Below, piece by piece: positions 39,196 to 61,461 of a stretch of DNA of 64,000 bases. Position 1 is the stretch's first letter. Each line of letters begins with the position of its first letter. This stretch comes from a virus. The DNA lies in IMG/VR virus record IMGVR_UViG_3300036907_000061, positions 4,627 through 68,626 of that record. One strand, written 5' to 3'. A program made the position numbers and the translations under genes. The notes beneath the pieces were generated by a model. That model ran no database searches and was not told where the DNA came from. It worked only from the letters and a program-made list of their open reading frames with translations.

Positions 39196-39418
39196 AGTTT
39201 CAAATTATCTATTGCGATCCTCCATGGATGGAGTCTGGAGGTGGGGCCATCAGGAGGGGCGCAGACCGACATTATCCGCTGATGAAAACTGGGGATATAG
39301 CAATCCTGCCAGTGCACAGGATTGCTGACACAAACTGTCATCTGTATATGTGGTCAACAAACAATCACCTTCCAGATGCATTGAAAGTCATGGAATCGTG
39401 GGGATTCAGATATGTAAC
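39192..39418 (+). pseudogene. MT-A70 family N6-adenine methyltransferase, 5' part (interrupted)
   Basis: IIYCDPPW...HYPLM...LYMW...WGFRYV, then the sequence switches into an attC site at TAAC 39415-39418. Confidence 0.9.
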
Positions 39419-39499
39419 ACTGAGGTCAGGCACGGCGGAGCCTGACGTTGGAATTAACCCGCAGCGCAACCCGCCGTTGCCTGCACCGATTGGTTAGAT
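39412..39499 (-). other. attC-like site 1
   Basis: Minus strand: ATCTAAC caatc GGTGCAGG caacggcgg...ccgccgtg CCTGACC tcagt GTTACAT = R'', spacer, L'' with an extra base, L', spacer, R'. Confidence 0.85.
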
Positions 39500-39767
39500 G
39501 CGTATGAACGAACAACAAAAAATAGAAGCTCTGCGAGCCGCGCTGGTAACGAAAAACTCCGCGCTCGAAAACTACGGACGGCACTTTGACTGGTGCTTCG
39601 TATCCAAAGTGACCAACGCCAATGGCAAACTGGGAATAATCACGAACGAAGCGGAAGCCTGCGACTGCGGCCTGATGCGAGAACGCGCAAGCCATCTAAA
39701 GGTGCTCGCCGACGCTGAAGCATCTAAACGATTTGTTAGCCCAAAATATTATGACAAAAACATATAA
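39498..39767 (+). CDS. Cassette 1 hypothetical protein (Zn-binding H..C / CDC)
   Basis: Bounded by gttagatgc (39493) and gcatctaa (39720). Confidence 0.6.
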   Translation: MRMNEQQKIEALRAALVTKNSALENYGRHFDWCFVSKVTNANGKLGIITNEAEACDCGLMRERASHLKVLADAEASKRFVSPKYYDKNI

Positions 39768-40056
39768 ACATGCAGAAATCATCGGGCCGTTTGTCGAGCC
39801 TGAATGGAGTTACGCGGTCATTGATGGCTACAAGGTGCCACATATCAGGCTGCGGCCACTCACGGGTGAGAACGACGGCAAAACTGAAATCCATATGGTG
39901 CGCGGCGGGCAGTGCTGGATAATAGACGACAGCGGAATAGACGTGATACTACACCTGCTGGCAACCGCGATGGCCGTGGCTGCGGGATACACCTGCCACG
40001 GAGAGCAGTCACAGCCAGCAAACCCGTTCAAAGTCCGAATGACATCTTTGGGCTAA
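39751..40056 (+). CDS. Cassette 2 hypothetical protein
   Basis: Bounded by the perfect inverted repeat gttagcccaaa (39735) / tttgggctaac (40047); the stop codon lies in the TAAC. Confidence 0.65.
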   Translation: MTKTYKHAEIIGPFVEPEWSYAVIDGYKVPHIRLRPLTGENDGKTEIHMVRGGQCWIIDDSGIDVILHLLATAMAVAAGYTCHGEQSQPANPFKVRMTSLG

Positions 40057-40125
40057 CAGTGAGTTCAGGCGTGCGGAACCTGAACCGTCCGAATAACTGG
40101 AAGGCGTATCCCGCATCGCCTGAAC
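40051..40125 (-). other. attC-like site 2, split (remainder at 39727-39741)
   Basis: ctaac agtga gttcaggcg tgcgg...ccgca t cgcctg aac; the missing aac-gattt-gttagccc arm lies at the other end of the cassette. Confidence 0.7.
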
Positions 40126-40177
40126 GTAGAACTGAGCGATGGCCGCGGTGGACATTCGCTCCAGTGATTTGTTAGCG
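40119..40177 (-). other. attC-like site 3
   Basis: Minus strand: CGCTAAC aaatc ACTGGAGC ... GCTCAGT tctac GTTCAGG. Confidence 0.85.
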
Positions 40178-40190
40178 GAATTTTTGATGA

Positions 40191-41084
40191 ATGAACTATT
40201 ACAACGAACACGACCCAAAGGCGGCTGCCTGGTTGCGCGAACTAATCCGCGCTGGCGAAATCCCGCCCGGTCATGTGGATGAAAGGGATATACAAAATGT
40301 CAAACCAACTGAACTTGCTGGATATACCCAATGCCACTTCTTCGCCGGAATCGGCGGGTGGCCACTCGCGCTGCGCCTCGCCGAATGGCCAGACACAGAA
40401 CCTGTCTGGACAGGCTCATGCCCATGTCAGCCGTTTAGCTGTGCTGGCGAAGGAATGGGAGAATCTGACGAAAGACACCTGTGGCCGGATTTCCGAAACC
40501 TCATCGGCAACAAAAAGCCTCCAGTCGTGTTTGGCGAGCAGGTTGCGAGCAAGTCTGGACTGCAATGGCTCGATGGAGTATGCGCTGACATGGAAAGAGC
40601 GGGCTACGCCATCGGGACGGCTGATCTGTGCGCTGCGGGCTTCGGGGCGCCGCACATCCGCCAGCGGCTCTACTTCGTCGCAGAGCGCGTTGGAGTCGCC
40701 CAGGGCGACTGCGACGAATCCCGACGGGACGACGCGCACGCGGCTCGACCAGCTTCCGCGGCAGGCGAATCTGGCGAGCTGGCGGACGCCGAATGCAACG
40801 GACGGCGATCATGGCGGACCAAACTCTCGGGACTCGGCGGGCGGATTGCACCTTTCGGGGCAGGCACTCCCGATGGGCACCCCGGCCCGACTAACGGCCA
40901 CTGGCGAGCTGCTGATTGGCTCCTCTGCCGGGATGGCAAGTGGCGGCCAGTTGAACCCGGCACATTCCCGCTGGCTCATGGGGTATCCGGTCGCGTGGGA
41001 CTCCTGCGGGGCTACGGCAATGCAATCGTGCCACAAGTTGCCGCGAAATTCATCCAAGCATGGTGCGAGTCCGTATTCCGCTAA
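40191..41084 (+). CDS. DNA cytosine-C5 methyltransferase, alpha polypeptide (cassette 3)
   Basis: FFAGIGG (I), SCPCQPFS (IV), GEQV (VI), RQRLY (VIII), GYGNAIV (X). Bounded by gttagcggaat (40171) / attccgctaac (41075). Confidence 0.9.
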   Translation: MNYYNEHDPKAAAWLRELIRAGEIPPGHVDERDIQNVKPTELAGYTQCHFFAGIGGWPLALRLAEWPDTEPVWTGSCPCQPFSCAGEGMGESDERHLWPDFRNLIGNKKPPVVFGEQVASKSGLQWLDGVCADMERAGYAIGTADLCAAGFGAPHIRQRLYFVAERVGVAQGDCDESRRDDAHAARPASAAGESGELADAECNGRRSWRTKLSGLGGRIAPFGAGTPDGHPGPTNGHWRAADWLLCRDGKWRPVEPGTFPLAHGVSGRVGLLRGYGNAIVPQVAAKFIQAWCESVFR

Positions 41085-41133
41085 CCAAGATTACTTGGAT
41101 GAAGGACAGAATGGGAATCGGACAGTATTTTAG
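40297..41133 (+). CDS. Overlapping +1-frame C5 methyltransferase beta polypeptide (motif IX)
   Basis: Long open alternate frame with WRTPNATD and LNPAHSRWLMGYP (motif IX, absent from the main frame); aaggga SD-like sequence upstream of the ATG. Confidence 0.7.
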   Translation: MSNQLNLLDIPNATSSPESAGGHSRCASPNGQTQNLSGQAHAHVSRLAVLAKEWENLTKDTCGRISETSSATKSLQSCLASRLRASLDCNGSMEYALTWKERATPSGRLICALRASGRRTSASGSTSSQSALESPRATATNPDGTTRTRLDQLPRQANLASWRTPNATDGDHGGPNSRDSAGGLHLSGQALPMGTPARLTATGELLIGSSAGMASGGQLNPAHSRWLMGYPVAWDSCGATAMQSCHKLPRNSSKHGASPYSANQDYLDEGQNGNRTVF

Positions 41134-41530
41134 AGGCATCACCGAAGACTGTCTATTTGGAGTAAGGGGCAATCTGCCATATCTTAACAAGAATGGAAAG
41201 AGGGCCCAAGGGATTACCGGGTTCACCGCCCCCAGAACGGAACACAGCGCAAAGCCTGTGGAAATGCGGGCAATGATTGAGCATGTATCTGGATCAGAAG
41301 ACAGAAAAATGCTTGAAATGTTCGCCCGAGAGCCGCACGAAGGATGGCATTGCATAGGAAACGAAATAAACGGAAACAGCATACTTGATGAAATTTTACA
41401 ATTAACCAGCCATGAAACACTTCCAGGAAATATCGGAGACCATCATTCGCAACTGCCGACGGGCATCCGGTCTGGCGAAGAGGGCGGTGGGAAAAAAGAG
41501 ACAGAAGCTCAACCGGACATCGTGCCTTGA
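41086..41530 (+). pseudogene. MT-A70 methyltransferase, 3' part
   Basis: TWMKDRMGIGQYFRGITEDCLFGVRG...EHSAKP...LEMFARE..GW..IGNE. Confidence 0.9.
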
Positions 41531-41612
41531 ACTTATAGAAGTTGCCCGGGCCATAAACTCATCCGCCCAATACCTGGAATGCGCCGCCACCGGACAATAC
41601 CTTGGAAACTAA
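41412..41612 (+). CDS. Hypothetical protein
   Basis: Short ORF overlapping the MT-A70 tail. Confidence 0.35.
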   Translation: MKHFQEISETIIRNCRRASGLAKRAVGKKRQKLNRTSCLELIEVARAINSSAQYLECAATGQYLGN

Positions 41613-41613
41613 A

Positions 41614-42126
41614 ATGAACGAAAAAATAGAAAGGCTGTTAAAAATTGTCGACGAGTTCCCCATCAGGGGACGAATAGACTACACCGACCAGTCCGACCTG
41701 CTGTTCTGCAACTCGGTGCTTGCCGCGATCAGGGATGCGGCACCTGCGATCCGTTTCGCATTCACCAGCCAAGCCCCGATTGTGGAAGCGCAAGTCGTGC
41801 CCAGCAGTTTTCCTCAAGCATTGCGACTAGAGGAACAAAGCATCCGCATCCAAGATTCGAGCCGGGGTATGCCGGATGTGCCCCCGGTGGCCGGGCCGGT
41901 CTACACCTCAGGAGCAGCGGGTCAAAAATCGGACACCGATAACAAACCCTCACCTTCCGAAACCAGTCCCGGCGTGTTAGCCGTGACAGCCTCGGAACCA
42001 TCAGAACAAAAGAAAACAGCAAAACGAAAATCTTCCAAACTGAAAACTCGGAAGAAGAAATCTTTATCACCCGCGCCCATTGCGCGTACCGAAGAGGTTT
42101 CAGTCCAAACCACAGCACAACCATAA
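41614..42126 (+). CDS. Hypothetical protein with basic disordered C-terminus
   Basis: ORF in the operon. Confidence 0.5.
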   Translation: MNEKIERLLKIVDEFPIRGRIDYTDQSDLLFCNSVLAAIRDAAPAIRFAFTSQAPIVEAQVVPSSFPQALRLEEQSIRIQDSSRGMPDVPPVAGPVYTSGAAGQKSDTDNKPSPSETSPGVLAVTASEPSEQKKTAKRKSSKLKTRKKKSLSPAPIARTEEVSVQTTAQP

Positions 42127-42136
42127 CATAGCACAT

Positions 42137-42646
42137 ATGGCAAAGAAAGTCAAATCCCCACAGTTAATCCCGGTGTTTCCGGAGTCGGTTACACAAATGA
42201 AGCTTCGTTTTTCAAAGGCATTGGAGCATGTCTTCAAACTTGACCAGCCTGCGGACGGAAAGGAATACAAGCCGGAAATGCCCGGACCCGTAAACGTGTT
42301 TGATTCTATGGGGTCAATCCGGTTCGTGGTACAGAAGATTTCCGCCAACGGTGCCCCTCCGGTATTGAACTTCACGTTCGGATGGGGGCCGGATGTAAAG
42401 CAGCCTCCGGTCAACCTGGAATGGTTCATTGTGGAATGCCACAGCCTGGCCTATGAACTATGCGGAAAGCTGCGGCCACTTTCCTGCGAACTGATCGGAA
42501 ACAACTTTCTGGCCATAAACTATTCAATCGAGGAAAACAATGACGCCCACAAGCACACTGGCACTGGTGAGGAATCTGTCGGAGGGAAGGCTGTCACAGG
42601 CCAGGCCGATAAAGTTCAAGACGGTAAAATTACTGCCCAAGACTGA
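42137..42646 (+). CDS. Hypothetical protein
   Basis: ORF in the operon. Confidence 0.5.
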   Translation: MAKKVKSPQLIPVFPESVTQMKLRFSKALEHVFKLDQPADGKEYKPEMPGPVNVFDSMGSIRFVVQKISANGAPPVLNFTFGWGPDVKQPPVNLEWFIVECHSLAYELCGKLRPLSCELIGNNFLAINYSIEENNDAHKHTGTGEESVGGKAVTGQADKVQDGKITAQD

Positions 42647-42761
42647 CAACATCAAACCCGAACTGGTGTATGTGTGCACAGAATGCGACTGGGGGCATCC
42701 GTTTAGCCCCAAGTTCTGCATGGAATGCGGAAATGACAGGTTCACCATGGAAATAATATGA
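42540..42761 (+). CDS. Small zinc-ribbon protein
   Basis: CTEC...CMEC; ATGA-type coupling to the next gene. Confidence 0.5.
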   Translation: MTPTSTLALVRNLSEGRLSQARPIKFKTVKLLPKTDNIKPELVYVCTECDWGHPFSPKFCMECGNDRFTMEII

Positions 42762-43561: not shown

Positions 43562-43799
43562 GACGAGTGAAAATACTCACTCAACTGAGTTAAATATCCC
43601 CAAGGAGTGGGCTGAGGCCCTGTCAAACGAGCGGCCCGAGGGATGTTTTACAATCACTGAATTGATGCAACTCATCCATCCCAGCATATCCCGATCCGCA
43701 ACCCATAGAAGGATTAAAAAATTGGTAACACTGAAAAGGGCCAGCGTGATATCTCAGGTATATCAAGGAACAATGACCCACTTTTACAAATTGAAATGA
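43548..43799 (+). CDS. Winged-HTH small protein
   Basis: FTITELMQL...SRSATHRRIKKLV. Confidence 0.55.
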   Translation: MKTNKTSENTHSTELNIPKEWAEALSNERPEGCFTITELMQLIHPSISRSATHRRIKKLVTLKRASVISQVYQGTMTHFYKLK

Positions 43800-43947
43800 A
43801 CTTGATCCGGCGCAAATTTGGACGGGTCGGAGTGGCCGTTTATTCCAGCCAGCCAACGCAACTGGAAGTTTCCGGTGCTCAACATTCAGCCCGCCAGCTT
43901 GACACCCGTATGCTGGCTTTGGCCCGGAGATGCGCCGGACATTGACT

Positions 43948-44733: not shown

Positions 44734-44830
44734 CCGACGAACAAGAGTCCAAACCAGCCGTGGCCGCGCTGGTGTTCCTGTGCGGTATTGCAACCGTGGC
44801 AACCGTCATCTACCTGATACTCAACAATTT

Positions 44831-45091: not shown

Positions 45092-45300
45092 ACATTGAAT
45101 TCGACCGATACTGTTCTTTAATGAACAACGACTCGGCATTAACCGAGGAGGAAATCAACTGCGGGTGGCACTTCTGCGCCGACTGGGACCTGCTTCTGAT
45201 AGGCCCGGGAATGGGTGAGATTGCGTCATGCGACTGTGACATACCATGCCTGGAGAACGAAAAGAAGATTCAGATTGAGAAGATGATGATTAATCTATGA
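45088..45300 (+). CDS. Hypothetical protein
   Basis: GWHFCADWDLLLI...CDC phage motif. Confidence 0.55.
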   Translation: MNIEFDRYCSLMNNDSALTEEEINCGWHFCADWDLLLIGPGMGEIASCDCDIPCLENEKKIQIEKMMINL

Positions 45301-47590: not shown

Positions 47591-48150
47591 CGGTATTAGC
47601 TAGGGGGGTACTGGCCAGTGGGGCTAGTACGGTTGGGCGGTCAAGCTCGGTGGAGCTTGTAGCAATTCGCTCAAGGCAAACGCCGAGTGGCTTTGACTAG
47701 GTTGTGACTGTCTAACGCATTAACCGGCCTGAAAAACTGAAAGCGTTAGCGTGACTGTCAGCACGAGATATACTGAGAAGAACGGGGAAGAAGTAGCGTA
47801 ACAGAGAAATAGCGTCACCTATGGTGCTTACGCCCTGCGCGTCTAGAGCCTGTACCCGGCACGTGTGCCGAGCAGAGCAAACGGCGCAACGGCCAATCCT
47901 GGGTGTAAAGGCGTCCCGTACAGCGTTAGTGTTCCCAAAGTCGAAAAGAACACCCCGTTGCCATGACAAAACTATCAATACCGGCTGAGTCCGTGAGGTG
48001 GTTGGCGCGGTAGCGATTCACCTGGTGCGTTTGCATCAGCCATGGTTAGAATCCGCCGTTAAAGACTATTGGAGTCCTGCTTTGGTGTCAGTCGGGAATC
48101 ATATGGATTAGAGTCTGCGGGTCGTTGACGCAGGAAAGTGAAACCCTTTC
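47591..48150 (+). ncRNA. Candidate large structured non-coding RNA
   Basis: No convincing ORF and many nested stems (see findings). Confidence 0.5.
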
Positions 48151-49195: not shown

Positions 49196-49227
49196 CTTTC
49201 CCTGACGGTAAACAACAACAAAAAACT

Positions 49228-49599
49228 ATGGAAACCACAAACATAAATGAAGTAGAAATCAACGGCGTTCAGTATGTTCGAAAGGACTCTGTTATTCCGA
49301 AACTCAACAAGGAAAACGCATGCATAGTGCGATGTGAAACGGCGGGCGTTTTCTTTGGCTATCCATCGTCAACCGACCTTTCCAAAGGCGTTGTGACATT
49401 GAAACAGGCGCGCAGACTATGGTATTGGTCTGGAGCCGCGTCCCTGTCTCAACTGGCGGTTGACGGCACATCCAAACCCGGGGAATGCAAGTTCCCGGTG
49501 TCGGTCCCTGAAATCTCCCTAACCAAAGTCATTGAATTGATTCCCTGTACTGAAAAGTCGGTGAATTCAATCAATGATGTCGCCATATGGAAAGTCTAA
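49228..49599 (+). CDS. DUF6948-like protein, copy 1
   Basis: IVRCETAGVFFG...L.QARRLWYWSGAASLSQLAVDG...IELIPC. Confidence 0.8.
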   Translation: METTNINEVEINGVQYVRKDSVIPKLNKENACIVRCETAGVFFGYPSSTDLSKGVVTLKQARRLWYWSGAASLSQLAVDGTSKPGECKFPVSVPEISLTKVIELIPCTEKSVNSINDVAIWKV

Positions 49600-49832
49600 A
49601 TAAAGGCTACGGCTACGGCTCCGGCTCCGGCGACGGCTACGGCTCCGGCTCCGGCGACGGCTACGGCTACGGCTCCGGCTACGGCTGCGGCTCCGGCTAC
49701 GGCTACGGCTACGGCTCCGGCTCCGGCGACGGCTGCGGCTCCGGCTCCGGCTGCGGCTACGGCTACGGCTGCGGCGACGGCTCCGGCTCCGGCTCCGGCT
49801 ACGGCTACGGCTACGGCTCCGGCGACGGATAA
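49587..49832 (+). CDS. Gly-X (GY/GS/GD/GC) repeat protein, copy 1
   Basis: GGC-(TAC/TCC/GAC/TGC) hexamer array in frame from an overlapping ATG. Confidence 0.65.
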   Translation: MESLNKGYGYGSGSGDGYGSGSGDGYGYGSGYGCGSGYGYGYGSGSGDGCGSGSGCGYGYGCGDGSGSGSGYGYGYGSGDG

Positions 49833-50243
49833 ACCACAACAAAAGGAACTGCATGCCCCGATGTAAAATGTATAAGATGGGCGATGTCATTTACACCGCT
49901 GTGCGAAATGACAACGTCATTGACATCTATCAACATACCACGTTCATCAAAACCACCACCTATCCAAGCAATGCGGTTGCAAAGAAGGCAATAAACGAAC
50001 TGTAATTCAGCAATACAACTCCCGGCATCCAATCGTGCCGGGACTTCTGTTACTGAAAGGAACTTATGGCATCTCCCAACACCCTGCAATTACGCAAGAT
50101 AGGAACGGTTAACAAGTCCGTTTTTGTCAAACAGCCGCATCTCTCAAAAACCATTCGCCAACAGCGCGATGTTCCGGTGTACCAATTGGGAAAGGTCATC
50201 CATTCCGGAGGAACCAGGGTTGGATCGTTCAAATAACAATTTC

Positions 50244-50889: not shown

Positions 50890-50996
50890 GCAAACATCTC
50901 AAACAAGCCTGCAAGCGATTCATACGCAAGGCAACCCATGTTCACTGGGTGAAGCTGCAAATCGCGGCGGGAAAGTGATTTAAACAACAAAAAACT

Positions 50997-51368
50997 ATGG
51001 AAACCACAAACATAAATGAAGTAGAAATCAACGGCGTTCAGTATGTTCGAAAGGACTCTGTTATTCCGAAACTCAACAAGGAAAACGCATGCATAGTGCG
51101 ATGTGAAACGGCGGGCGTTTTCTTTGGCTATCCATCGTCAACCGACCTTTCCAAAGGCGTTGTGACATTGAAACAGGCGCGCAGACTATGGTATTGGTCT
51201 GGAGCCGCGTCCCTGTCTCAACTGGCGGTTGACGGCACATCCAAACCCGGGGAATGCAAGTTCCCGGTGTCGGTCCCTGAAATCTCCCTAACCAAAGTCA
51301 TTGAATTGATTCCCTGTACTGAAAAGTCGGTGAATTCAATCAATGATGTCGCCATATGGAAAGTCTAA
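50997..51368 (+). CDS. DUF6948-like protein, copy 2 (identical)
   Basis: Same protein sequence as copy 1. Confidence 0.8.
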   Translation: METTNINEVEINGVQYVRKDSVIPKLNKENACIVRCETAGVFFGYPSSTDLSKGVVTLKQARRLWYWSGAASLSQLAVDGTSKPGECKFPVSVPEISLTKVIELIPCTEKSVNSINDVAIWKV

Positions 51369-51607
51369 ATACAGGCTCCGGCGACGGCTACGGCTACGGC
51401 TACGGCTACGGCTCCGGCGACGGCTACGGCTCCGGCGACGGCGACGGCTACGGCTCCGGCTCCGGCTCCGGCGACGGCTACGGCGCCGGGTCCGGTGGCG
51501 GCTCCGGCTCCGGCTCCGGCTCCGGCTGCGGCGACGGCTCCGGCTCCGGCTCCGGCGACGGCTACGGCTCCGGCTCCGGCGACGGCTCCGGCTGCGGCGA
51601 CGGATAA
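51356..51607 (+). CDS. Gly-X repeat protein, copy 2
   Basis: Same architecture as copy 1 with a different repeat order. Confidence 0.65.
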   Translation: MESLNTGSGDGYGYGYGYGSGDGYGSGDGDGYGSGSGSGDGYGAGSGGGSGSGSGSGCGDGSGSGSGDGYGSGSGDGSGCGDG

Positions 51608-51710
51608 ACCATTTCCGGGAAACCGGACGGTGTCGGGGGTAATGTTCTAATACTTGGCAGAGGGCGAGAACACGTCTGTCTGTTCAGGAACCTCCGACGC
51701 TTTTAATTTT

Positions 51711-52636: not shown

Positions 52637-52822
52637 ATGGGATTACTTGGAAAGTTAATTGGTACGGCACTGGATGTGGCTACTTCGCCTATTGCGGTTA
52701 TAAAGGACGCAATCCCCGGAGCTGGTGGATACATTGACGGCAACCTCAGCCACACTGGAAGGAAAATCGAAGAAGTGTCCGATGATCTCAAAGAAGTGCG
52801 CGAAGACATCGAAGACCTGTAA
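52637..52822 (+). CDS. Small hypothetical protein
   Basis: MGLLGKLIGTALDVATSPIAVIKD is a recurrent phage motif. Confidence 0.6.
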   Translation: MGLLGKLIGTALDVATSPIAVIKDAIPGAGGYIDGNLSHTGRKIEEVSDDLKEVREDIEDL

Positions 52823-55366: not shown

Positions 55367-55368
55367 AC

Positions 55369-56178
55369 ATGAAACCAAATCCCGCAGATTTTACCATCTT
55401 GAATATCAATGCAGAACGGGGGACGATCCGATCCCTACCCCATCCAACTCTTGGATATATTCACGAATTGGAACGTGATCCCCATCTGTGGATTCACGCT
55501 GAGAGCAATCAGGGAGGGAATGGGTACACCGACGAAATCGATGAGGCGGGATGGTTTACTGCTGCAAGCGTTCATGAATTATATATTGGGGACGGTGCTC
55601 AATTCTGGGTTCCCAGTAATCCATTTGTTATCAAAGCGGAAAAATCAGCCCCATCCGGCCCATCCAGACGGTGTTTTATCGTTGAACCATCACGTCCAAA
55701 CCAATCATTTTACTGGCTGAGGGGTGAAAATGGAATGAGCTTTGGGTATACCGCCAACCGGGTGACTGCCGGAATATGGACCTTGCAGGAGGCGATGGAA
55801 AAATCATTGGGTGTCCAGTGTGAATTTTGGATTATCAATGATCGAAAATTCGAGCCCAAATCACCCACCCACCACCTCGTCCACCTGCTCACAACCTGCA
55901 AGAATAGTCCCGAGGAGGTTGATTGGCGCAAGATTCTTTCCATGGATTTTGCCAGCATGACGTCCCGGAATATATCTCCCATAAGCGACAAATGCGATTC
56001 AGCAGTCATGGCTGGATTGCTGGCTTATTCCGATAGGGCAAGAGACTTGCTGTCGTATGATGATTTCGTTGAGTTTCACATGATCTTATCAAGAGCCTGT
56101 GACCGGTACAAGTCAAAGGTGAAGGAAAATAACCTTCCCAAGACTGCAAGCAAGATAGTGTCGGCATTATTAAAATAA
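55369..56178 (+). CDS. Hypothetical protein of the Ubl operon
   Basis: Tightly packed between E2 and E1. Confidence 0.55.
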   Translation: MKPNPADFTILNINAERGTIRSLPHPTLGYIHELERDPHLWIHAESNQGGNGYTDEIDEAGWFTAASVHELYIGDGAQFWVPSNPFVIKAEKSAPSGPSRRCFIVEPSRPNQSFYWLRGENGMSFGYTANRVTAGIWTLQEAMEKSLGVQCEFWIINDRKFEPKSPTHHLVHLLTTCKNSPEEVDWRKILSMDFASMTSRNISPISDKCDSAVMAGLLAYSDRARDLLSYDDFVEFHMILSRACDRYKSKVKENNLPKTASKIVSALLK

Positions 56179-56179
56179 T

Positions 56180-56842
56180 ATGGCAAGAATATTCATCATT
56201 GGATGCGGCGGAGTGGGCTCATGGCTCGCTCCGGCAATCTGCCTGCTGGCGGGCAGGAGAAACGTAACCCTGGTTGACGGAGATTCTCTGGAGGACAAGA
56301 ATCTGGACCGTCAATTATTCTCCGAGGACGATATCGGGAGAAACAAGGCCGAGGCCCTTGCGGAAAAATACCAATGCGAGCACATACCCTCGTTTTATGA
56401 GGAGGGCCTGGTCCGGCATAAGGATTCTGACTGGCTGCTGGTTGGGGTGGACAACAATGCCGGAAGACTCTCATGTTTAAAGTCGTGCGACGACTTCGGG
56501 TGTCAGGCCATATTTGGGGCCAATGAAACCCACTCCTCCGAGGCATACTATTATCGAAAAGACTGGTCCGGAACCAGGCTGGACCCCAGAATTTACTACC
56601 CGGAGATTCTCAAACCTGGCTCCGACCCCAGGGTCAGGTCCATTGGGTGTACCGGGGAGGCGCAAAAGGACAATCCCCAACTGGTATCCTCCAACGTGTC
56701 GGCCAATTCCCTTATGCAAAGCCTGTATGTGGTCTGGGGCATGGAGGCTCCCAAGTTATCAGCCGATATCATTCCCTTTCTGCCTTTCAGAAGAATCATC
56801 AACCTGTCTGCCATGTCGGAAATTAAAGTAGGACAAGCATGA
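56180..56842 (+). CDS. ThiF/E1-like adenylyltransferase
   Basis: IIGCGGVGS, LVDGD, NLDRQ, NKAEAL, GVDNNAGR; SIGC is the putative catalytic Cys. Confidence 0.9.
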   Translation: MARIFIIGCGGVGSWLAPAICLLAGRRNVTLVDGDSLEDKNLDRQLFSEDDIGRNKAEALAEKYQCEHIPSFYEEGLVRHKDSDWLLVGVDNNAGRLSCLKSCDDFGCQAIFGANETHSSEAYYYRKDWSGTRLDPRIYYPEILKPGSDPRVRSIGCTGEAQKDNPQLVSSNVSANSLMQSLYVVWGMEAPKLSADIIPFLPFRRIINLSAMSEIKVGQA

Positions 56843-57918
56843 AACAAAACACAAGATTCAAGGATTGGAAAAAATTCGAGGCGGCAGACCCCGCCTTGAA
56901 GTCCATGGACCCGAAGCTTGAATCCATTGTCATAAACAACCATCAAACCCAGGAGGATGGCGTATTTTATTCCTCCAAGGCTTCCGGAAAATATAACAAG
57001 ACCGAAAAGGGCGCGGAGCGGATTTCCCTGGAAGAGGCCCTGAAAGTTTGCGCCGACAGGTCGGCCACCCACATATGGGTTGAGGTGTGTTTTATTTACA
57101 GTAGAATAAAATGCTCAGCTCTATCAGAATGGATTTCCCGACCGCCAAACATTGAAGGATGCCTGGTATTGTGCATGCCCCGCGAGGTGTTCTACACCCG
57201 AAGTGGTTCTGGTGGTTTTTTGTCCACCACTGACGACATCCAACTGGCCGGTAGGTGGAACGCAACTCATCCCACCATATTAAATACAGCAGGCAATAGA
57301 AGTATGGAGATTTGGATTCCATCGGAAGAGAAAATACCCGACGGCAAGACCAGGATGTGCTCCATGGAGAAAATGTTGAGCGGCAGTCTGATTGATTTGA
57401 TCAAGTCCGCGCCCAAAAATCCCGTGGTCAGGTCCATCGTGCTTCAAAAGATGAAGAAGTCCCCCCCGGACGCATGCGACACTTTTGAAAAGATCAAGGA
57501 CTGGATTGAGTTCAATTTCGCCGCTTACGAATGGGCCCCCAATCCCAAGAGTGGTCGGGGGGTGAACTTTACCATTGAGGGTTCGGATCGGGAAACGGGT
57601 TCTTGCAGCTATGCATGCCACCGATTTGGGAATGTGGAGGAGACGATTTCCGAGGATGACATTTTAGCGGAGGCCCAACGGGCGCTTGCGGAGGGCTCAA
57701 TGGAAAGCTTCATAGATTCCATACATGAAACACTGCGGGAGCGAGCCGCGTCCAACATGGAATGCGGGGGAGGGGAGGATTATGAATATGATGATTACGA
57801 AGGAAATGCTTCGGATGGATTGGAAATTGATTTGAATATCTCTGTGGTAAAAGATAAAATAACCGGATTCCTGCAAACATATCATCGGGACATCCTCAAT
57901 CAACTGAAAGAACTATGA
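56839..57918 (+). CDS. Hypothetical protein of the Ubl operon, acidic C-terminal half
   Basis: ATGA-coupled to both E1 and JAB. Confidence 0.55.
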   Translation: MKQNTRFKDWKKFEAADPALKSMDPKLESIVINNHQTQEDGVFYSSKASGKYNKTEKGAERISLEEALKVCADRSATHIWVEVCFIYSRIKCSALSEWISRPPNIEGCLVLCMPREVFYTRSGSGGFLSTTDDIQLAGRWNATHPTILNTAGNRSMEIWIPSEEKIPDGKTRMCSMEKMLSGSLIDLIKSAPKNPVVRSIVLQKMKKSPPDACDTFEKIKDWIEFNFAAYEWAPNPKSGRGVNFTIEGSDRETGSCSYACHRFGNVEETISEDDILAEAQRALAEGSMESFIDSIHETLRERAASNMECGGGEDYEYDDYEGNASDGLEIDLNISVVKDKITGFLQTYHRDILNQLKEL

Positions 57919-59150
57919 ACCTGGTCAAAACCGAAATAACCCATCTGATAAGAAACAAGGAGGCCGCCGGGATACTCCAGTTCAAGGGGGAGTATAAAGT
58001 AACCGAGGCCAAAGGGGAGCTGACCTATGCCGGTCCCAAGATTCCCCCCGGCGAATGGAACAAGATACTTTCATTCTTAAAGTGGGTGTATGACACCACC
58101 CAGAGCGAGGCCCAGGTCAGGCTGTATCTCAACACCAAGACCAATGTGTGGGCGGCGTGGGCCTATCCCCAGGAAGCCAACACCGGAATGACCGCCAAGG
58201 AGATTGCCAATGAGGCGGCCAACGCCCAAAGGGCTCAGTTCAAAGATGATGCGGGGTGGATATATTTCGGAACCGTGCACTCTCATTGCGCCTGTTCAGC
58301 ATTCCAGTCCAGCACGGACGAGTCCAATGAGAAGGACCAGGACGGAATCCATATCACCATTGGATATCTGGACAAGACGGTGTATGACTTTCACGCCAGG
58401 CTCTATTTCGGAAAGGACCAGTTTACCCCAGATATGTCTGTTTTCTGGGAAACGGGGGATGTCATGAGCGGAGTGCCGGATGTTGTAAGGGACATGATCC
58501 CGGACGGATGGCAGGACAAACTGGCAAGGATGCAAATGGTGGTTCCACCATCCGAACCATCTTTCCCGGAACCATGGAAGGAAAATGTGGTGGATGTAAG
58601 GCCGCAATGGCAGAAAAACGACCGGGCCTGGGATGAGGATAACAGGCAGGGATGGAATGGTCGTTCCAACATCATCCACATCGATGGCAAGCCCAACCGC
58701 TGGGATGAGTCCACACACCGGTATATTGAACAGGAGTGGGACCAGTTCAAATCGCAGTACGTGCCGTTGGGTTCGGCATCAAACAAAGTTCCCGAACCCT
58801 CCTCCAATCCGGCGTGGTCAAAACAAAGAAGGAAGAAGGGAAACAGGGACAAGCTTATGCCAATTGACGTCCGCAAACAGGAAGCTTGTGATGAACTTTT
58901 CAAGATGGCCAATGAGCTGGGAGCGGAAGAGGCCGATATCATGCTGGAGTCCCAAGGCCTGGCCGATTGTCCTCTGGCCTGCGCCCTGGTAAAGGTGTTA
59001 AAGGATTACGATTTGGTTCCATCCGACATGGTTGACCAGATTGAGTGGGAGTTCAAATTTGACAAGAACACAGGAGCTCTCAAAGACCCGGTCCTGGAAT
59101 ATGACAAGTCCACCAACCAGTCAGAATTCGAGTCCGGTTTTCCGAATTGA
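57915..59150 (+). CDS. JAB/MPN+ metallopeptidase domain protein
   Basis: SEAQV...GTVHSHCACSAFQSSTD...GIHITIG (E-HxH-x7-S-x2-D). Confidence 0.85.
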   Translation: MNLVKTEITHLIRNKEAAGILQFKGEYKVTEAKGELTYAGPKIPPGEWNKILSFLKWVYDTTQSEAQVRLYLNTKTNVWAAWAYPQEANTGMTAKEIANEAANAQRAQFKDDAGWIYFGTVHSHCACSAFQSSTDESNEKDQDGIHITIGYLDKTVYDFHARLYFGKDQFTPDMSVFWETGDVMSGVPDVVRDMIPDGWQDKLARMQMVVPPSEPSFPEPWKENVVDVRPQWQKNDRAWDEDNRQGWNGRSNIIHIDGKPNRWDESTHRYIEQEWDQFKSQYVPLGSASNKVPEPSSNPAWSKQRRKKGNRDKLMPIDVRKQEACDELFKMANELGAEEADIMLESQGLADCPLACALVKVLKDYDLVPSDMVDQIEWEFKFDKNTGALKDPVLEYDKSTNQSEFESGFPN

Positions 59151-59153
59151 TTT

Positions 59154-59471
59154 ATGAAAATACCAACAATAAAATTAAAACTCAGAGCTGGCAATGGTCT
59201 GTATGCATATAGACAAGGAAGAGCGATCATACTGTGCCATAGATTTGTGGAAGAAACCATCGGAACAACACCACCAATCATAACGGTAACAACAAGTCTA
59301 AAGAAGCCTAAATACAAAAAGGCAAGATTTATCAAGCTGGGTTCTTTGTATGGCAAGTTTTCCCATTGGCAAGGCGGTATGGTGTATAGGGCTGCTGTCA
59401 TTCTAATCAGAAAACTATTCCCCAATCGAGATAAGGTCAGTCTTTGGATTATAATCCGCAGGTTAAAATGA
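59154..59471 (+). CDS. Basic hypothetical protein
   Basis: ORF in the operon. Confidence 0.4.
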   Translation: MKIPTIKLKLRAGNGLYAYRQGRAIILCHRFVEETIGTTPPIITVTTSLKKPKYKKARFIKLGSLYGKFSHWQGGMVYRAAVILIRKLFPNRDKVSLWIIIRRLK

Positions 59472-59863
59472 AGTTCTGGGTGTTCATTCTGTGTCTGGTG
59501 CTGTGCCACGCCAGCGCTCAAGACATCAGGATTGTTGCCCTGAGTCAGATTGAATCCGGAGACCGGGATGATGCGATTGGTGCCTGTGGGGAGGTTTCCC
59601 GATGGCAGGTTCTGCAATCAGTGTGGATGGAGTATGCGAAGGATGAGAATCCCAAAGTATCTTCCGAGGCGGTTGTGGTGGTCAATCGAATCATCAATGA
59701 CCGGATAAATCATTTCACCCAGAGATACCATAGACAGCCCACCGATGAGGAGTATTATCTGCTATGGCATCGCCATGCAAGGGTCTTGAATCCCCGAATC
59801 AATGAAAAGGAACGGGCTGAAAGATTTGCAAATTTAGTGCGGTCAATGCGTTCTACACAATAA
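59468..59863 (+). CDS. Secreted lysozyme/lytic-transglycosylase-like protein
   Basis: Signal peptide; ALSQIESG.D.AIG..GEVSRWQV with a putative catalytic Glu. Confidence 0.7.
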   Translation: MKFWVFILCLVLCHASAQDIRIVALSQIESGDRDDAIGACGEVSRWQVLQSVWMEYAKDENPKVSSEAVVVVNRIINDRINHFTQRYHRQPTDEEYYLLWHRHARVLNPRINEKERAERFANLVRSMRSTQ

Positions 59864-59867
59864 TCAT

Positions 59868-60122
59868 ATGGCCAGAAAACTTCTTCCCCTGATACATTAC
59901 TCTCCTGGAGCACAGTTATCACCCCAATTCAACCCTCCCAAACCACTGGCCTGCTGCCCGTCATGCAAGCGTCCGCTAATCGCGGAAAAGAAAGAAGGTT
60001 TGTTTGCGGTATATTGTGGAAATCCCCATTGTGACAGCGTAATCGCCAACACCGGGGCTTCCGGCAGTACTCCTGATGAGGCTATGGACAACTTCAATGC
60101 CAAAATGGCAAAAAATATATGA
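59868..60122 (+). CDS. Lar-like zinc-finger protein
   Basis: CPSC...VYCGNPHC...EAMDNFN. Confidence 0.55.
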   Translation: MARKLLPLIHYSPGAQLSPQFNPPKPLACCPSCKRPLIAEKKEGLFAVYCGNPHCDSVIANTGASGSTPDEAMDNFNAKMAKNI

Positions 60123-60388
60123 CTGAAACCGAGACCAAACTGCGCGAAATCCTATGCCTGTTTCTGGGCATAAATACGGACCAGATTCAACCATCTTCGG
60201 ACATCATAAAAGACCTTGGTGCTGATAGTCTGGACGTGGTGGAAATCATCATGGAAATAGAAGATGAATTTCAGATTGCCATCGACGACGAAGACGTATT
60301 AAAAATAAAGACATTCCAGGATGTGCTTGCTTTGGTGGATAAAGAGTCGTCCTCACTACTGAGTCATCAATTCCAGGGTGACTCATAA
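60119..60388 (+). CDS. acpP: Acyl carrier protein
   Basis: DLGADSLDVVEIIMEIEDEFQI.IDDED..KIKT with the phosphopantetheine Ser. Confidence 0.92.
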   Translation: MTETETKLREILCLFLGINTDQIQPSSDIIKDLGADSLDVVEIIMEIEDEFQIAIDDEDVLKIKTFQDVLALVDKESSSLLSHQFQGDS

Positions 60389-60431
60389 CAAATGAGAGAG
60401 ACTACAGGCCGTTCACTGAGGCGCGTGACCT

Positions 60432-60842
60432 ATGACAACCGCAACCAAAAACTCGAAGCGACAAACTCGGACGCCCAACGGCGGCGAAGAAACAACCATC
60501 TTCCTTGCTGCTCTTGCAGCAAAGCTCGAACTGCCAACCGATGTGACACTGCTGGCTTGCGGCATGCAGGGTCTGAGATACGGTATGGCAACTGTCGGTG
60601 AATGTGCAGACAAAATCATCAAAGACTATCTAAACGGCGCACTGGCCGAACGTCTAGCCGGTGGCGGCAACGGTGGAGCGCAAGACCGGCCCGAAAAGAA
60701 ATGGTGCGCGTGGTGTGGGGTGTGGGGCGACCACACAAGCGGCGGATGTGACGACCTCCACGATGTTTTACTGCATCGTCGAGCGGAAGCAGAAAAGCAG
60801 CCGAACGCGGGAACTGATCCGACGCCGACAAACAACAAATAA
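60432..60842 (+). CDS. Hypothetical protein (cassette-like, ends in an attC arm)
   Basis: C-terminal PNAGTDPT is read from the left attC arm; CAWC..GDH motif. Confidence 0.5.
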   Translation: MTTATKNSKRQTRTPNGGEETTIFLAALAAKLELPTDVTLLACGMQGLRYGMATVGECADKIIKDYLNGALAERLAGGGNGGAQDRPEKKWCAWCGVWGDHTSGGCDDLHDVLLHRRAEAEKQPNAGTDPTPTNNK

Positions 60843-60932
60843 ATATGAGAGAACGAAATCTGCCGTTGAACACAGAACTGCCGCATGAAAAACCGCAGGA
60901 CGAGGGGCTGTTAGGTCCGGCGACTTGTGAGG
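60800..60932 (-). other. Degenerate attC-like site 4
   Basis: gaac gcggga actgatccgacgcc ... ggctgttaggtccggc gactt gtga pairs on the top strand with G-T wobbles. Confidence 0.45.
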
Positions 60933-61168
60933 CGATTCCTCACGCTGATCTGCTGGACATGTTGAAAGGGGCCGCGTGGTATTCCGGCGGGCGTGAGTGC
61001 TACGGTGAGCATCAAGGATACAGTTTCGATGTGGACGAAGAAACATCTCTGCGCGACGTGCTCTACCGCGACGAGACTCTATACAAAACGCCAGAAGAAG
61101 CAATCGTCGCCCACTGGCACAGACACTATTCGCCGAACGACCGAACTCTGCCGCGTGCCGACAAATGA
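60845..61168 (+). CDS. Cassette hypothetical protein
   Basis: Starts inside site 4 and ends inside site 5. Confidence 0.55.
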   Translation: MRERNLPLNTELPHEKPQDEGLLGPATCEAIPHADLLDMLKGAAWYSGGRECYGEHQGYSFDVDEETSLRDVLYRDETLYKTPEEAIVAHWHRHYSPNDRTLPRADK

Positions 61169-61263
61169 CACTCGACGACCAAGCATGGAAGGAACATATC
61201 GCTATGCTCAAAGCATCTAAACTGGCGGCGCAAGGCACGTTGGCAGCAGTGAGCTTGTTAGCC
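61132..61263 (-). other. attC-like site 5
   Basis: gaac gaccga actctgcc gcgtgcc ... ggcacg t tggcag c agt gagctt gtta, with two extrahelical bases. Confidence 0.8.
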
Positions 61264-61422
61264 TGCCGCCGCTGCGGAAAAACACCATCAATGACATCAA
61301 ACGGTGGTATGTGGTATGCGACCTGTGAGCATCCAGCGTGTGACACAACCATCCACGCCGAAACGCTCGATGAGCTTGTCAAGTGGTGGAACATAATTCA
61401 AAACTCAACTGCGGCAGGCTAA
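61165..61422 (+). CDS. Cassette-borne Lar-like zinc-finger protein
   Basis: CRRCG...CEHPAC...VKWWN; core bounded by a perfect 13-bp inverted repeat, gttagcctgccgc / gcggcaggctaac. Confidence 0.65.
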   Translation: MTLDDQAWKEHIAMLKASKLAAQGTLAAVSLLACRRCGKTPSMTSNGGMWYATCEHPACDTTIHAETLDELVKWWNIIQNSTAAG

Positions 61423-61461
61423 CGCTCCGGGTGAGCCACCAGCGCGCGAAAACCAAAAACT

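What the first reader, a model, noticed from the sequence alone, without database searches (positions are those of the whole stretch)
39412..61447. attC sites are inverted relative to their genes and can carry the start and stop codons
Seen: at every well-formed site the extrahelical bases lie in the downstream arm of the coding strand, and the crossover is at the upstream TAAC/GAAC. Each attC therefore sits 5' of its gene, the reverse of canonical integron cassettes. At 60800-60932 and 61132-61263 the hairpin loop holds the stop of the previous gene and the ATG of the next. About 30 N-terminal residues (e.g. ...GTLAAVSLLA, ...GLLGPATCEA) and the C-terminal tails (PNAGTDPT, PNDRTLPRADK) are encoded by the recombination site itself. 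Inference: these cassettes bring their own translation start and couple to whatever phage operon they land in.
Basis: partly seen in the sequence, partly recalled or inferred. Interest (0 to 1): 0.8.

Follow-up and report, generated by a model that had tools for sequence, protein, structure and literature searches.

The report
Phage integron cassettes read backwards
A peat phage carries genuine integron-type recombination hairpins (attC sites) whose recombining strand is the strand that encodes the genes, the opposite of normal integron cassettes, so that the hairpins sit in front of their genes and partly encode the ends of the proteins.

Summary
The core observation holds. The window is most of a 68.6-kb phage genome with no integron integrase (IntI). 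It has three well-formed attC sites, all on the + (coding) strand: 39412-39499, 40119-40177 and 61132-61263. All three show the published bottom-strand geometry: AAC, 5-6 nt spacer, 3 bp, bulge, 6 bp, bulged T, spacer, GTT, with both bulges on the arm opposite AAC. One further hairpin has a single bulge, and there are two degenerate sites.

Three results support this polarity:
- A 1667-bp cassette block splits an MT-A70 methylase gene exactly at + strand TAAC/TAAC.
- The site at 39412 belongs to a family found at 37 places. In bacterial-type arrays of that family, genes lie on the opposite (canonical) strand. In phage-type contigs they lie on the same strand.
- A strict geometry scan gave 23 coding-strand hits and 0 antisense hits in phage-type loci. 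The published phage CALIN of TJE1 scored as canonical.

At 61132-61263 the loop holds an ATGA stop/start overlap. The 29-residue leader it encodes also heads an unrelated protein.

One headline site, 60800-60932, has no 3' arm and does not fold. Which start codons are used, and which recombinase acts, remain untested.

This is a new variant of a known kind.

The parts
39192..39497 (+). N-terminal half of a split MT-A70 DNA methylase gene. It reads through attC site A and stops at TAG inside the GTTAGAT box.
   Evidence: Pfam MT-A70 model positions 1-72; sequence
39412..39499 (+). attC site A: R' ATGTAAC (39412-39418), 5-nt spacer, 5' arm 39424-39438, loop, 3' arm 39471-39487 with bulged T and C, 5-nt spacer, R'' GTTAGAT (39493-39499). 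The + strand is the bottom strand.
   Evidence: Fold z -2.27, bulges on the 3' arm; geometry scan with 0 mismatches; covariance model (CM) R1 scores 84 bits on + versus 29 on -; 37 family sites
39419..41085 (+). 1667-bp cassette block inserted in the MT-A70 gene. It begins just after TAAC and ends with CGCTAAC.
   Evidence: Joining 39418 to 41086 keeps the frame (..RYVT-KITWMK..). The intact homologue reads ..KVRTPKLITWVK...
39498..39767 (+). orf89. Its ATG abuts R'' of site A. Site A plus orf89 is conserved together in L045/L027.
   Evidence: 95.8% identity over 283 nt
39735..39741 (+). Orphan R'' box GTTAGCC with spacer GATTT in front of orf101. It lacks its hairpin here. In L017 the complete h1-type attC precedes the orf101 homologue.
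39751..40056 (+). orf101. Its stop TAA lies inside GGCTAAC (40051-40057).
40051..40125 (+). Hairpin h1, a diverged member of the A family: GGCTAAC, spacer AGTGA, arms 40063-40076 and 40111-40125, with one bulged T on the 3' arm.
   Evidence: CM R1 scores 30 bits on + versus 12.5 on -; fold of 40051-40177 z -4.9
40119..40177 (+). attC 'site 3': CCTGAAC, spacer GTAGA, arms 40131-40142 and 40153-40165 with bulged C and T on the 3' arm, spacer GATTT, R'' GTTAGCG.
   Evidence: Geometry scan with 1 mismatch; the same hairpin with other flanks in runs X2 and X4
40191..41084 (+). dcm-like cytosine-5 DNA methylase cassette gene. Its stop TAA lies inside CGCTAAC (41079-41085).
   Evidence: Pfam DNA_methylase 3.9e-15, TIGR00675 1.7e-12
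41086..41530 (+). C-terminal half of the split MT-A70 gene.
   Evidence: Pfam MT-A70 model positions 89-172
60800..60916 (+). Degenerate site D: GCCGAAC plus a spacer and 5' arm like those of site C, TAA 60840-60842, ATG 60845, GTTAGGT 60910-60916. There is no 3' arm.
   Evidence: Fold z +1.1
60845..61168 (+). Gene of the P0003 family. The conserved core starts at about residue 31. The N-terminal 30 residues and the tail after 'SPN' are read from sites D and C.
   Evidence: Alignment of 14 sequences
61132..61263 (+). attC site C: R' GCCGAAC, 6-nt spacer, 5' arm 61145-61159, 74-nt loop with ATGA at 61165-61168, 3' arm 61234-61250 with bulged C and T, 6-nt spacer, R'' GTTAGCC 61257-61263.
61165..61422 (+). 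Small zinc-finger gene with a weak Lar-like match. Residues 1-33 are encoded inside site C. Its stop TAA lies inside GGCTAAC (61417-61423).
61417..61447 (+). Half-site: GGCTAAC, spacer GCTCCG and 5' arm GGTGAGCCACC. It is homologous to the 5' half of complete sites in L052 and L045. No 3' arm was found.
62143..63024 (+). Tyrosine recombinase of 293 aa. It is not an integron integrase and is probably the phage's own integrase.
   Evidence: PF00589 and SAM_1 match; TIGR02249 gave no hit at E<=10; best PDB match is phage Gp33

Best explanation
The phage carries two small clusters of integron-type attC sites with no integron integrase, that is, CALINs. Their recombinogenic bottom strand is the phage's coding strand.

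If the folded bottom strand is cleaved at AA|C of the 5' box, each mobile unit has this order: C, spacer, hairpin, GTT box, ORF, ..TAA. The attC therefore lies in front of its gene, and the unit often ends exactly on a TAA stop.

One block of such units (orf89, orf101 and a dcm-like methylase) was inserted into a GTT/AAC secondary site inside the phage MT-A70 gene.

Because the attC is transcribed upstream of its gene, the reading frames have adapted to it. Upstream ORFs run through the AAC box and stop in it or in the loop. Downstream ORFs start in the loop, sometimes as an ATGA overlap, or within a few bases of the GTT box. Parts of the site are thus translated as C-terminal tails and N-terminal leaders.

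Shown: site geometry, strand, junctions, family membership, and recurrence in other phage contigs.

Inferred: that a host IntI acting in trans moves the units, that the loop ATGs are used, and that termination-reinitiation couples the genes.
For: Geometry.
- A, site 3 and C match the published bottom-strand layout on the + strand (rule from PMC5027507, passages read).
- With strict criteria, phage-type loci (74,337 nt) gave 23 hits on the coding strand and 0 on the antisense strand. Fourteen of the 23 are not of the A type that selected those loci. The far bulge is T in 23 of 23.
- The null expectation is 0.13 hits per strand, from 30 Markov simulations.

Family.
- The arms of site A occur at 37 places: the window, L005 and 35 sites in 34 metagenome contigs.
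- In 20 bacterial-type loci the strict scan gave 45 hits on the A-site strand and 1 on the other strand. All 29 non-A hits were co-oriented.
- There, flanking ORFs with Pfam hits were 5 of 20 on the opposite strand and 0 of 20 on the same strand (Fisher p=0.047).
- In 12 of 22 rows the opposite-strand frame ends -5 to +11 nt from the GTT box, against 0 of 10 phage-type rows.
- In phage-type loci, 4 of 9 same-strand ORFs had clear Pfam hits: helicase, RNA-ligase-like, RecT and an N6_N4 methylase.

Control.
- The published TJE1 CALIN gave bottom-strand geometry on the - strand at 1016-1075 and 1462-1519, with its genes on the + strand. That is the canonical arrangement.

Crossover.
- The MT-A70 halves rejoin in frame at TAAC|C.
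- Homology between the window and L045 starts at TAAC.
- Tails in the P0003 family diverge after SPN.

Coding overlap.
- P0002 shares only the first 29 residues with ORF 61165-61422.
- Among the 23 strict sites, the first ATG of the downstream ORF lies in the loop in 5, in the GTT box in 4, and 1-9 nt after it in 9.
- The upstream stop lies in the AAC box in 6 and in the loop in 13. An ATGA overlap occurs in 3.

No IntI: TIGR02249 found nothing in G000, G001 or G002.
Against: - No recombination was observed. Contigs of four other runs bridge both MT-A70 junctions, and none restores the gene.
- The purine-skew and strand-stability criteria of PMC5027507 are inconclusive here. Purine content is 0.52-0.55 on the + strand. 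Site A folds 1 kcal better on the - strand. In the family the bottom strand is on average 0.3-0.5 kcal less stable.
- The near bulge is C in 20 of 23 sites, not the usual G.
- Linkage of an attC to its downstream gene is not strict. One leader precedes two unrelated bodies, and N-termini of the P0003 family vary.
- Site D and the half-site lack a 3' arm.
- My scan is home-made. It is not IntegronFinder or HattCI.
- For some phage-type loci (L022, L024, L030, L035, L049) the coding strand rests on ORF layout only.
Confidence: 0.78

Rival explanations
1. The hairpins derive from attC sites but now serve as conserved 'linker' sequences. The phages' own homologous-recombination enzymes (RecT/exonuclease type) shuffle genes at these linkers. 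The MT-A70 insertion arose by TAAC microhomology, and no integron integrase is involved.
For: No IntI in G000, G001 or G002. Exonuclease or RecT genes lie next to the arrays in the window and in L045. The P0001/P0002 homology ends inside the site, at the 3' arm/spacer boundary, rather than at a core triplet. Qi et al. 2023 (PMC9892861, section 3.4 read) also raise off-target homologous or illegitimate recombination.
Against: The insertion ends fall exactly on the AAC of an R' box. The full bulge geometry is kept in sites whose stems differ in sequence, which suggests selection for integrase recognition rather than for homology alone. The same family forms ordinary cassette arrays in bacterial-type contigs.
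Confidence: 0.12
2. The sites are canonical in polarity: the + strand is the top strand, each gene is followed by its own attC, and the crossover is at G|TT. The bulge positions mislead, and the MT-A70 event was a rare top-strand or R'' recombination.
For: Stop codons inside xxCTAAC right after a gene (orf101, dcm, the Lar-like gene) look like ordinary cassettes. Top strands can recombine at about 1000-10,000-fold lower frequency (PMC5027507, passage read). orf101 is followed by hairpin h1 in the window.
Against: 23 of 23 strict sites have both bulges opposite the AAC on the coding strand. With identical arms, bacterial-type arrays carry their genes on the other strand. TJE1 scores as canonical with the same scan. 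In L017 the h1-type site precedes orf101.
Confidence: 0.05
3. The sites belong to a phage-owned system. The Xer-like tyrosine recombinase at 62143-63024 recombines them as an integron-like platform. It lies where an intI would lie relative to attC polarity.
For: The recombinase lies about 700 bp beyond the second cluster. It is on the strand and side that a canonical intI would occupy relative to the attC top strand (and coordinates).
Against: It is not an IntI: TIGR02249 gave no hit at E<=10, it is 293 aa long, and its best PDB match is a phage integrase. G002, a 96%-complete phage with at least 4 such sites, has no PF00589 match at all. tblastx of the window against the fetched loci reported no match in 62143-63024.
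Confidence: 0.05

Closest known systems
Integron gene cassettes and their attC sites (canonical, e.g. attCaadA7, VCR)
   Same: AAC/GTT boxes, 5-6-nt unpaired central spacer, bulged bases at positions 16 and 23 separated by 6 bp, and a variable loop. Each gene is bracketed by complementary GTTAGxx...xxCTAAC boxes. A stop codon often lies in the TAAC box.
   Different: The gene lies on the bottom strand instead of the top strand, so the attC precedes its gene. The near bulge is mostly C rather than G. Start codons and N-terminal residues lie inside the site. There is no attI, Pc promoter or IntI.
CALINs (attC clusters lacking an integrase) in phage genomes (Qi et al. 2023, PMC9892861; abstract, section 3.4 and passages read)
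   Same: attC clusters without IntI in phages, with DNA methylase cassettes among them.
   Different: That paper describes the TJE1 and PH101 cassettes as arranged like bacterial arrays. My scan of TJE1 gives the canonical polarity, whereas here the polarity is inverted. I saw no mention there of start codons inside attC. Its supplements could not be read.
Cassette insertion at genomic secondary sites, attG (Loot et al., bioRxiv 10.1101/2022.09.11.507474; passages read)
   Same: Insertion at a short GWT/GTT target inside a gene, with no attI. The MT-A70 target reads G|TT on the - strand.
   Different: The event here is a natural one in a phage gene and involves a three-gene block. The integrase responsible is unknown.
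Short ORFs in attI/attC that couple translation (ORF-11; termination-reinitiation in attC; review PMC8876359, passages read)
   Same: Stop and start codons placed in recombination sites, proposed to relieve the hairpin block and couple translation.
   Different: There the site encodes a separate short peptide on the top-strand transcript. Here the site's loop, arm and box are in frame with the cassette protein itself.
Synthetic attC sites embedded in coding sequences (Nivina et al. 2020, PMC7439510; passages read)
   Same: An attC structure and a protein-coding function share one stretch of DNA.
   Different: Those sites were engineered. The ones here are natural and lie at gene ends.

Membership tests
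Integron attC recombination site | Imperfect inverted repeat bounded by a 5'-xxxxAAC box and a GTTxxxx-3' box (R'/R'') | tested here: met
   A: ATGTAAC/GTTAGAT. Site 3: CCTGAAC/GTTAGCG. C: GCCGAAC/GTTAGCC. The R boxes of A and C pair at 6/7 and 5/7; those of site 3 pair at only 4/7.
Integron attC recombination site | Unpaired central spacer of 5-6 nt on each arm | tested here: met
   Spacers are 5/5, 5/5 and 6/6.
Integron attC recombination site | Extrahelical bases near L'' on the arm opposite AAC in the bottom strand, the far one a T, with 6 bp between them | tested here: met
   Each has 3 bp, C, 6 bp, T on the 3' arm of the + strand at A, site 3 and C. The far bulge is T in 23 of 23 strict sites across phage-type loci. 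The near bulge is C, not the usual G.
Integron attC recombination site | Bottom strand richer in purines and more stable than the top strand | tested here: inconclusive
   Purine content 0.52-0.55 on the + strand; strand energies are mixed.
Integron attC recombination site | Recombined by an integron integrase as a folded single strand | not testable with these tools
A population look found no excised form.
Canonical integron gene cassette | ORF on the top strand, followed by its attC | tested here: not met
   The ORFs are on the bottom strand. Bacterial-type relatives and TJE1 do meet this feature.
Complete integron | intI (IntI-type tyrosine recombinase) with attI next to the array | tested here: not met
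   TIGR02249 gave no match at E<=10 in G000. The 293-aa recombinase matches only generic and Xer models far below their cut-offs.
CALIN (cluster of attC sites lacking an integrase) | At least two attC sites within about 4 kb and no IntI nearby | tested here: met
   A, h1 and site 3 lie within 0.8 kb. C lies with degenerate site D and a half-site within 0.65 kb. There is no IntI. The sites were called with my own scan, not IntegronFinder.

The most novel reading that the evidence does not exclude
A phage-adapted class of integron cassettes exists in which the recombinogenic bottom strand is the sense strand. The attC precedes its gene and doubles as a translation-start and coupling module, and sometimes as an N-terminal leader. 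This would let small genes, among them methylases and possibly restriction-alleviation proteins, drop into any co-directional phage operon and be expressed without a promoter or Shine-Dalgarno sequence of their own. Such cassettes would be exchanged among phages through host integron integrases.
Probability: 0.45. Interest if true: 0.85.

Novelty: new variant of a known kind. Interest (0 to 1): 0.72.

Why it matters
Bottom-strand selectivity of integron integrases is usually explained as the device that puts promoterless cassette genes in the right orientation behind the Pc promoter. Here the same attC family is used with the opposite gene polarity in at least five independent phage-like contigs.

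If this holds, gene orientation relative to attC is not fixed by the recombination chemistry. It would also mean that phages hold their own pool of cassettes, which standard cassette annotation (ORF followed by attC) would mis-assign.

It offers natural examples of attC sites that also encode protein, something so far shown only with designed sites. It also gives a testable route by which phages gain small accessory genes such as DNA methylases.

Tried and rejected
Searches and tests that led nowhere
- Rfam at gathering threshold over the window: 0 matches.
- blastn of 56001-64000 against the phage collection: no match.
- Close relatives of the phage sought through its exonuclease in viral contigs: 17 pattern matches, 0 confirmed.
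- A sliding-window fold did not discriminate sites.
- A first loose AAC...GTT scan gave only 4 folding pairs per strand.
- Counts of GTTAG and CTAAC are not enriched in the region.
- The 17-nt A/h1 motif in viral contigs gave L005 plus one chance match, L004, inside a coding region.
- The gapped A/h1 pattern in GTDB genomes gave 11 hits. None has a TAAC box, so I read them as chance short hairpins.
- The pattern shared by the 5' halves of C and D found 0 viral contigs.
- The Lar-like protein found 0 relatives in viral contigs.
- The P0001/P0002 alignment found 0 relatives in metagenome contigs.
- The A-family covariance model found only A and h1 in the window. It is too sequence-specific to detect site 3 or C.
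- The purine-skew and strand-stability criteria were inconclusive.
- GC3 and open-frame cover could not assign the coding strand in the metagenome contigs, so I used Pfam hits and stop positions instead.

Sequencing runs
- No RNA holder was listed.
- Laid contigs of X2-X5 showed no joint restoring MT-A70. Parts without cover are not interpreted. Peat as a habitat rests on coded run labels only.

Readings considered and rejected
- IS200/IS605-type single-strand transposon: no TnpA gene, and the geometry is that of attC.
- N4-type hairpin promoters: the phage has no giant RNA polymerase.

Limits of what I could see
- Supplements of PMC9892861, which hold the attC coordinates and orientations for 17 phage CALINs, could not be read and may bear on the novelty claim.
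- Not-in-print claim: searches and the passages read turned up no description of bottom-strand-sense cassettes in phages or of cassette start codons inside the attC loop. This covers the held library only.

Full report
WHAT THE WINDOW IS

The window is bases 4627-68626 of a single 68,626-bp IMG/VR virus record, estimated 98% complete. It encodes a large terminase, virion proteins, a primase/helicase and an exonuclease. From about 32.8 kb onward the genes lie on the + strand. Coded run labels suggest peat metagenomes.

THE SITES

I found three well-formed sites on the + strand:
- A, 39412-39499
- 'site 3', 40119-40177
- C, 61132-61263

Each reads 5'-xxxxAAC, spacer of 5 or 6 nt, 5' arm, loop, 3' arm, spacer of the same length, GTTAGxx-3'. 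In each, the 3' arm carries two unpaired bases. A C follows the first 3 bp, and a T follows a further 6 bp.

Nivina et al. 2016 (PMC5027507, passages read) describe the attC bottom strand as follows:
- R' is RYYYAAC at the 5' end, and R'' is GTTRRRY at the 3' end.
- The unpaired central spacer is 5-6 nt.
- The extrahelical bases lie near L'' at position 16 and, as a conserved T, at position 23/24, with 6 bp between them.
- These bases lie on the arm opposite AAC in the bottom strand and on the same arm as AAC in the top strand.

By that rule the + strand is the bottom strand at all three sites.

A fourth hairpin, h1 (40051-40125), is a diverged relative of A with only the T bulge, again on the 3' arm. 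Two further sites are degenerate. D (60800-60916) shares its AAC box, spacer and 5' arm with C but has no 3' arm; its fold z-score is +1.1. The half-site at 61417-61447 has only a 5' half. Nothing attC-like was detected between 41.1 and 60.8 kb.

IS THIS MORE THAN CHANCE?

A lax version of the scan has a background of about 2.4 hits per genome on both strands together (40 Markov simulations). The strict version allows spacers of 5-6 nt, at most 1 mismatch and at most 1 G-T pair.

In 74,337 nt of the window's right half plus 11 phage-type loci, the strict scan gave 23 hits on the coding strand and none on the antisense strand. The expectation is 0.13 per strand (30 simulations). Fourteen of the 23 are not of the A type that had been used to find those loci. 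Their stems differ in sequence while the geometry is kept.

SITE A BELONGS TO A WIDESPREAD FAMILY

Its two arms, searched as an exact pattern, occur in 34 metagenome contigs at 35 sites, in one IMG/VR contig (L005), and in the window. All 37 show an AAC-type box, a spacer, the arms, a spacer and a GTT box. A few boxes are degenerate (AAT, GAC, or GTT missing in L044).

The contigs fall into two kinds.

Bacterial-type, 20 loci:
- The strict scan finds 45 sites on the A-site strand and 1 on the other strand.
- The 29 additional non-A sites are all co-oriented, with up to 7 sites in one locus. These are ordinary cassette arrays.
- Flanking ORFs with Pfam hits number 5 of 20 on the opposite strand: Imm35, N_methyl with DUF1559, DJ-1/PfpI at 1e-26, a sub-threshold HTH_20, and Barstar.
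- On the same strand the count is 0 of 20 (Fisher p=0.047).
- In 12 of 22 rows the opposite-strand frame ends -5 to +11 nt from the GTT box.

This is the canonical arrangement. Gene orientation and bulge position agree in calling the displayed strand the bottom strand.

Phage-type loci (window, L005/L028, L017, L022, L024, L026, L027/L045, L030, L035, L037, L049, and L052 found through a protein):
- The genes are on the same strand as the bottom strand.
- Four of 9 same-strand ORFs have clear Pfam hits: ResIII/DEAD helicase and an RNA-ligase-like protein in L026, RecT in L045, and an N6_N4 methylase in L037.
- L045 also has a homologue of the window's exonuclease.
- L005 shows a tiled operon on that strand.
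- L017 and L052 carry homologues of window genes on that strand.
- For L022, L024, L030, L035 and L049 the strand rests on ORF layout only.

As an outside control I scanned Tetrasphaera phage TJE1, whose CALIN sites were shown to recombine with IntI1 by Qi et al. 2023 (PMC9892861; abstract, section 3.4 and table passages read). The looser version of the scan put bottom-strand geometry on the - strand at 1016-1075 and 1462-1519, between + strand genes. That is the canonical arrangement. The inversion is therefore not an artefact of the scan, and it is not a general property of phage CALINs.

WHERE THE CROSSOVER LIES

The MT-A70 methylase gene is split. Pfam model positions 1-72 end at 39419 and positions 89-172 resume at 41111. 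Joining the + strand after ..GTAAC (39418) to C-AAG.. (41086) keeps the frame and gives ..WGFRYVT-KITWMKD... The intact methylase of Morganella phage Mecenats66 reads ..WGFKVRTPKLITWVK...

The 1667-bp insert starts with site A immediately after TAAC and ends with the dcm stop inside CGCTAAC. No hairpin lies at the right end. This is what bottom-strand cleavage at AA|C predicts for insertion into a G|TT target on the - strand. Such secondary-site (attG, GWT) insertion has been shown experimentally by Loot et al. (bioRxiv 10.1101/2022.09.11.507474, passages read).

Further points agree with this:
- L045/L027 carry site A plus orf89 at 95.8% identity over 283 nt. The homology begins at TAAC, and the upstream box there is CCGCTAAC, the same as the window's dcm end.
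- In L017 a complete h1-type site precedes the orf101 homologue.
- In the 14-member P0003 family the core is conserved, and the tails of P0003, P0004 and P0005 diverge directly after 'SPN', which is CCG AAC.
- A contig in run X4 continues a diverged dcm end ..CGCTAAC with different sequence.

CODING OVERLAP

In site C the loop holds ATGA at 61165-61168. ORF 60845-61168 reads through GCCGAAC, the spacer and the 5' arm (..SPNDRTLPRADK) and stops there. ORF 61165-61422 starts there and reads through the loop, the 3' arm, the spacer and GTTAGCC (residues 1-33) before its Cys-rich body. It then stops on the TAA of GGCTAAC.

The database protein P0002 shares only residues 1-29 with it (30 of 35 aligned residues identical) and then has an unrelated Cys-rich body. 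The leader therefore belongs to the site rather than to the gene.

The same layout recurs elsewhere:
- L052 has two hand-aligned C-type sites at about 2615-2741 and 2880-3008, each with three bulges, all on the 3' arm. One loop holds TAG..ATG and the other holds ATGA.
- L045 has a site at about 5708-5826 with a loop ATG.
- In L037 a Pfam-supported methylase has in-frame ATGs at 117 and 129 in the loop and at 186, abutting the GTT box.

An automatic tally over the 23 strict sites gave these counts.

| Feature | Position | Sites |
|---|---|---|
| Upstream stop | in the AAC box, as TAA\|C | 6 |
| Upstream stop | in the loop | 13 |
| First ATG of the downstream ORF | in the loop | 5 |
| First ATG of the downstream ORF | in the GTT box | 4 |
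| First ATG of the downstream ORF | 1-9 nt after the GTT box | 9 |
| ATGA overlap of stop and start | - | 3 |

The tally uses first ATGs and open frames, not gene calls.

At site A the truncated MT-A70 frame stops at TAG inside GTTAGAT, and the ATG of orf89 follows at the next base.

WHAT IS NOT SHOWN

- Which start codons are used. TTG at 61255 and ATG at 186 in L037 are in-frame alternatives abutting the GTT box.
- Whether coupling occurs.
- Which enzyme acts. There is no IntI in G000, G001 or G002.
- The window's 293-aa tyrosine recombinase is generic or Xer-like, and its best PDB match is a mycobacteriophage integrase. G002, with at least 4 such sites, has no tyrosine recombinase at all.
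- The insertion is fixed. Contigs from three other runs bridge the left junction and two bridge the right one. No excised form was seen.
- The purine-skew and stability criteria do not help.

MECHANISM (INFERENCE)

A host integron integrase, acting in trans during infection or lysogeny, most likely recombines the folded coding strand.

With genes co-directional with replication, the coding strand would be the lagging-strand template. It is also the non-template strand in transcription. Either would favour folding of the bottom strand, but I have no evidence for this.

Placing the attC upstream means that an inserted unit ends on its own TAA. It also brings a start that sits next to wherever the interrupted upstream frame terminates. 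That would suit insertion into a tightly packed, co-directional phage operon.

A serious rival is that the conserved hairpins now act as homology linkers for the phages' own RecT/exonuclease recombination.

COMPARISON AND NOVELTY

The following are already in print:
- attC clusters and methylase cassettes in phages (PMC9892861)
- secondary-site insertion (the Loot preprint)
- stop and start codons and short coupling ORFs in attI/attC (review PMC8876359, passages read)
- designed attC sites inside coding sequence (PMC7439510, passages read)

In four literature searches and the passages read, I did not find either of two things. One is a set of cassettes whose genes lie on the bottom strand as a recurrent phage arrangement. 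The other is a cassette protein whose N-terminus is encoded by the attC loop and arm. The supplements of PMC9892861 were closed and might bear on this.

I file this as a new variant of a known kind.

EARLIER NOTES OF THIS SCAN

These were the insertion, a 'permuted attC' at orf101, and the second cluster with a non-IntI recombinase. My results agree with all three. L017 adds the unpermuted form.

Noticed in passing
window 52637-52822: A 61-aa gene is homologous (about 75% nt identity, 79% aa identity) to the L017 gene at 677-865. In L017 an h1-type attC follows it. In the window the gene ends on CTGTAAC with no hairpin after it, so it may be a cassette that lost its attC.
   Followed up: partly
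window 49214-49513 and 50983-51282; 49509-49932 and 51290-51701: An exact 300-nt duplication is present. Each copy is followed by a long tract of 6/12/18-nt Gly-rich repeats that differ between the two copies.
   Followed up: no
window 49213, 50982, 52622, 60830: A shared A-rich sequence, AAACAACAAAAAACT-ATG, lies in front of four start codons, including the ATG at 60845 inside degenerate site D. It may be this phage's usual translation-start context in place of a Shine-Dalgarno sequence.
   Followed up: no
L052 (IMG/VR contig of 54,277 bp, G002), about 2615-4460: A second, otherwise unrelated phage carries at least four attC sites of the same polarity between small zinc-finger genes. It has no tyrosine recombinase at all.
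   Followed up: partly
L045 5097-5826: This phage-like contig has RecT and an exonuclease, followed by three consecutive sense-strand attC sites. The first precedes a 96%-identical copy of site A plus orf89. The second has the canonical G as its near bulge.
   Followed up: partly
window 40122-40175: Contigs of runs X2 and X4 match only the site 3 hairpin and then run on with unrelated sequence. The breaks fall just before AAC and just after GTT or GTTAG. This hairpin therefore occurs in other contexts in other samples.
   Followed up: no
window 47712-47751: A short CTAACGC...GCGTTAG hairpin with a 24-nt loop lies in a stretch without clear ORFs. It did not pass the attC geometry scan.
   Followed up: no
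L036 413-1270 (- strand): A bacterial-type cassette next to an A-family attC encodes an N_methyl/DUF1559 protein. From memory, that pairing is typical of Planctomycetota, which hints at the bacterial source of the attC family.
   Followed up: no
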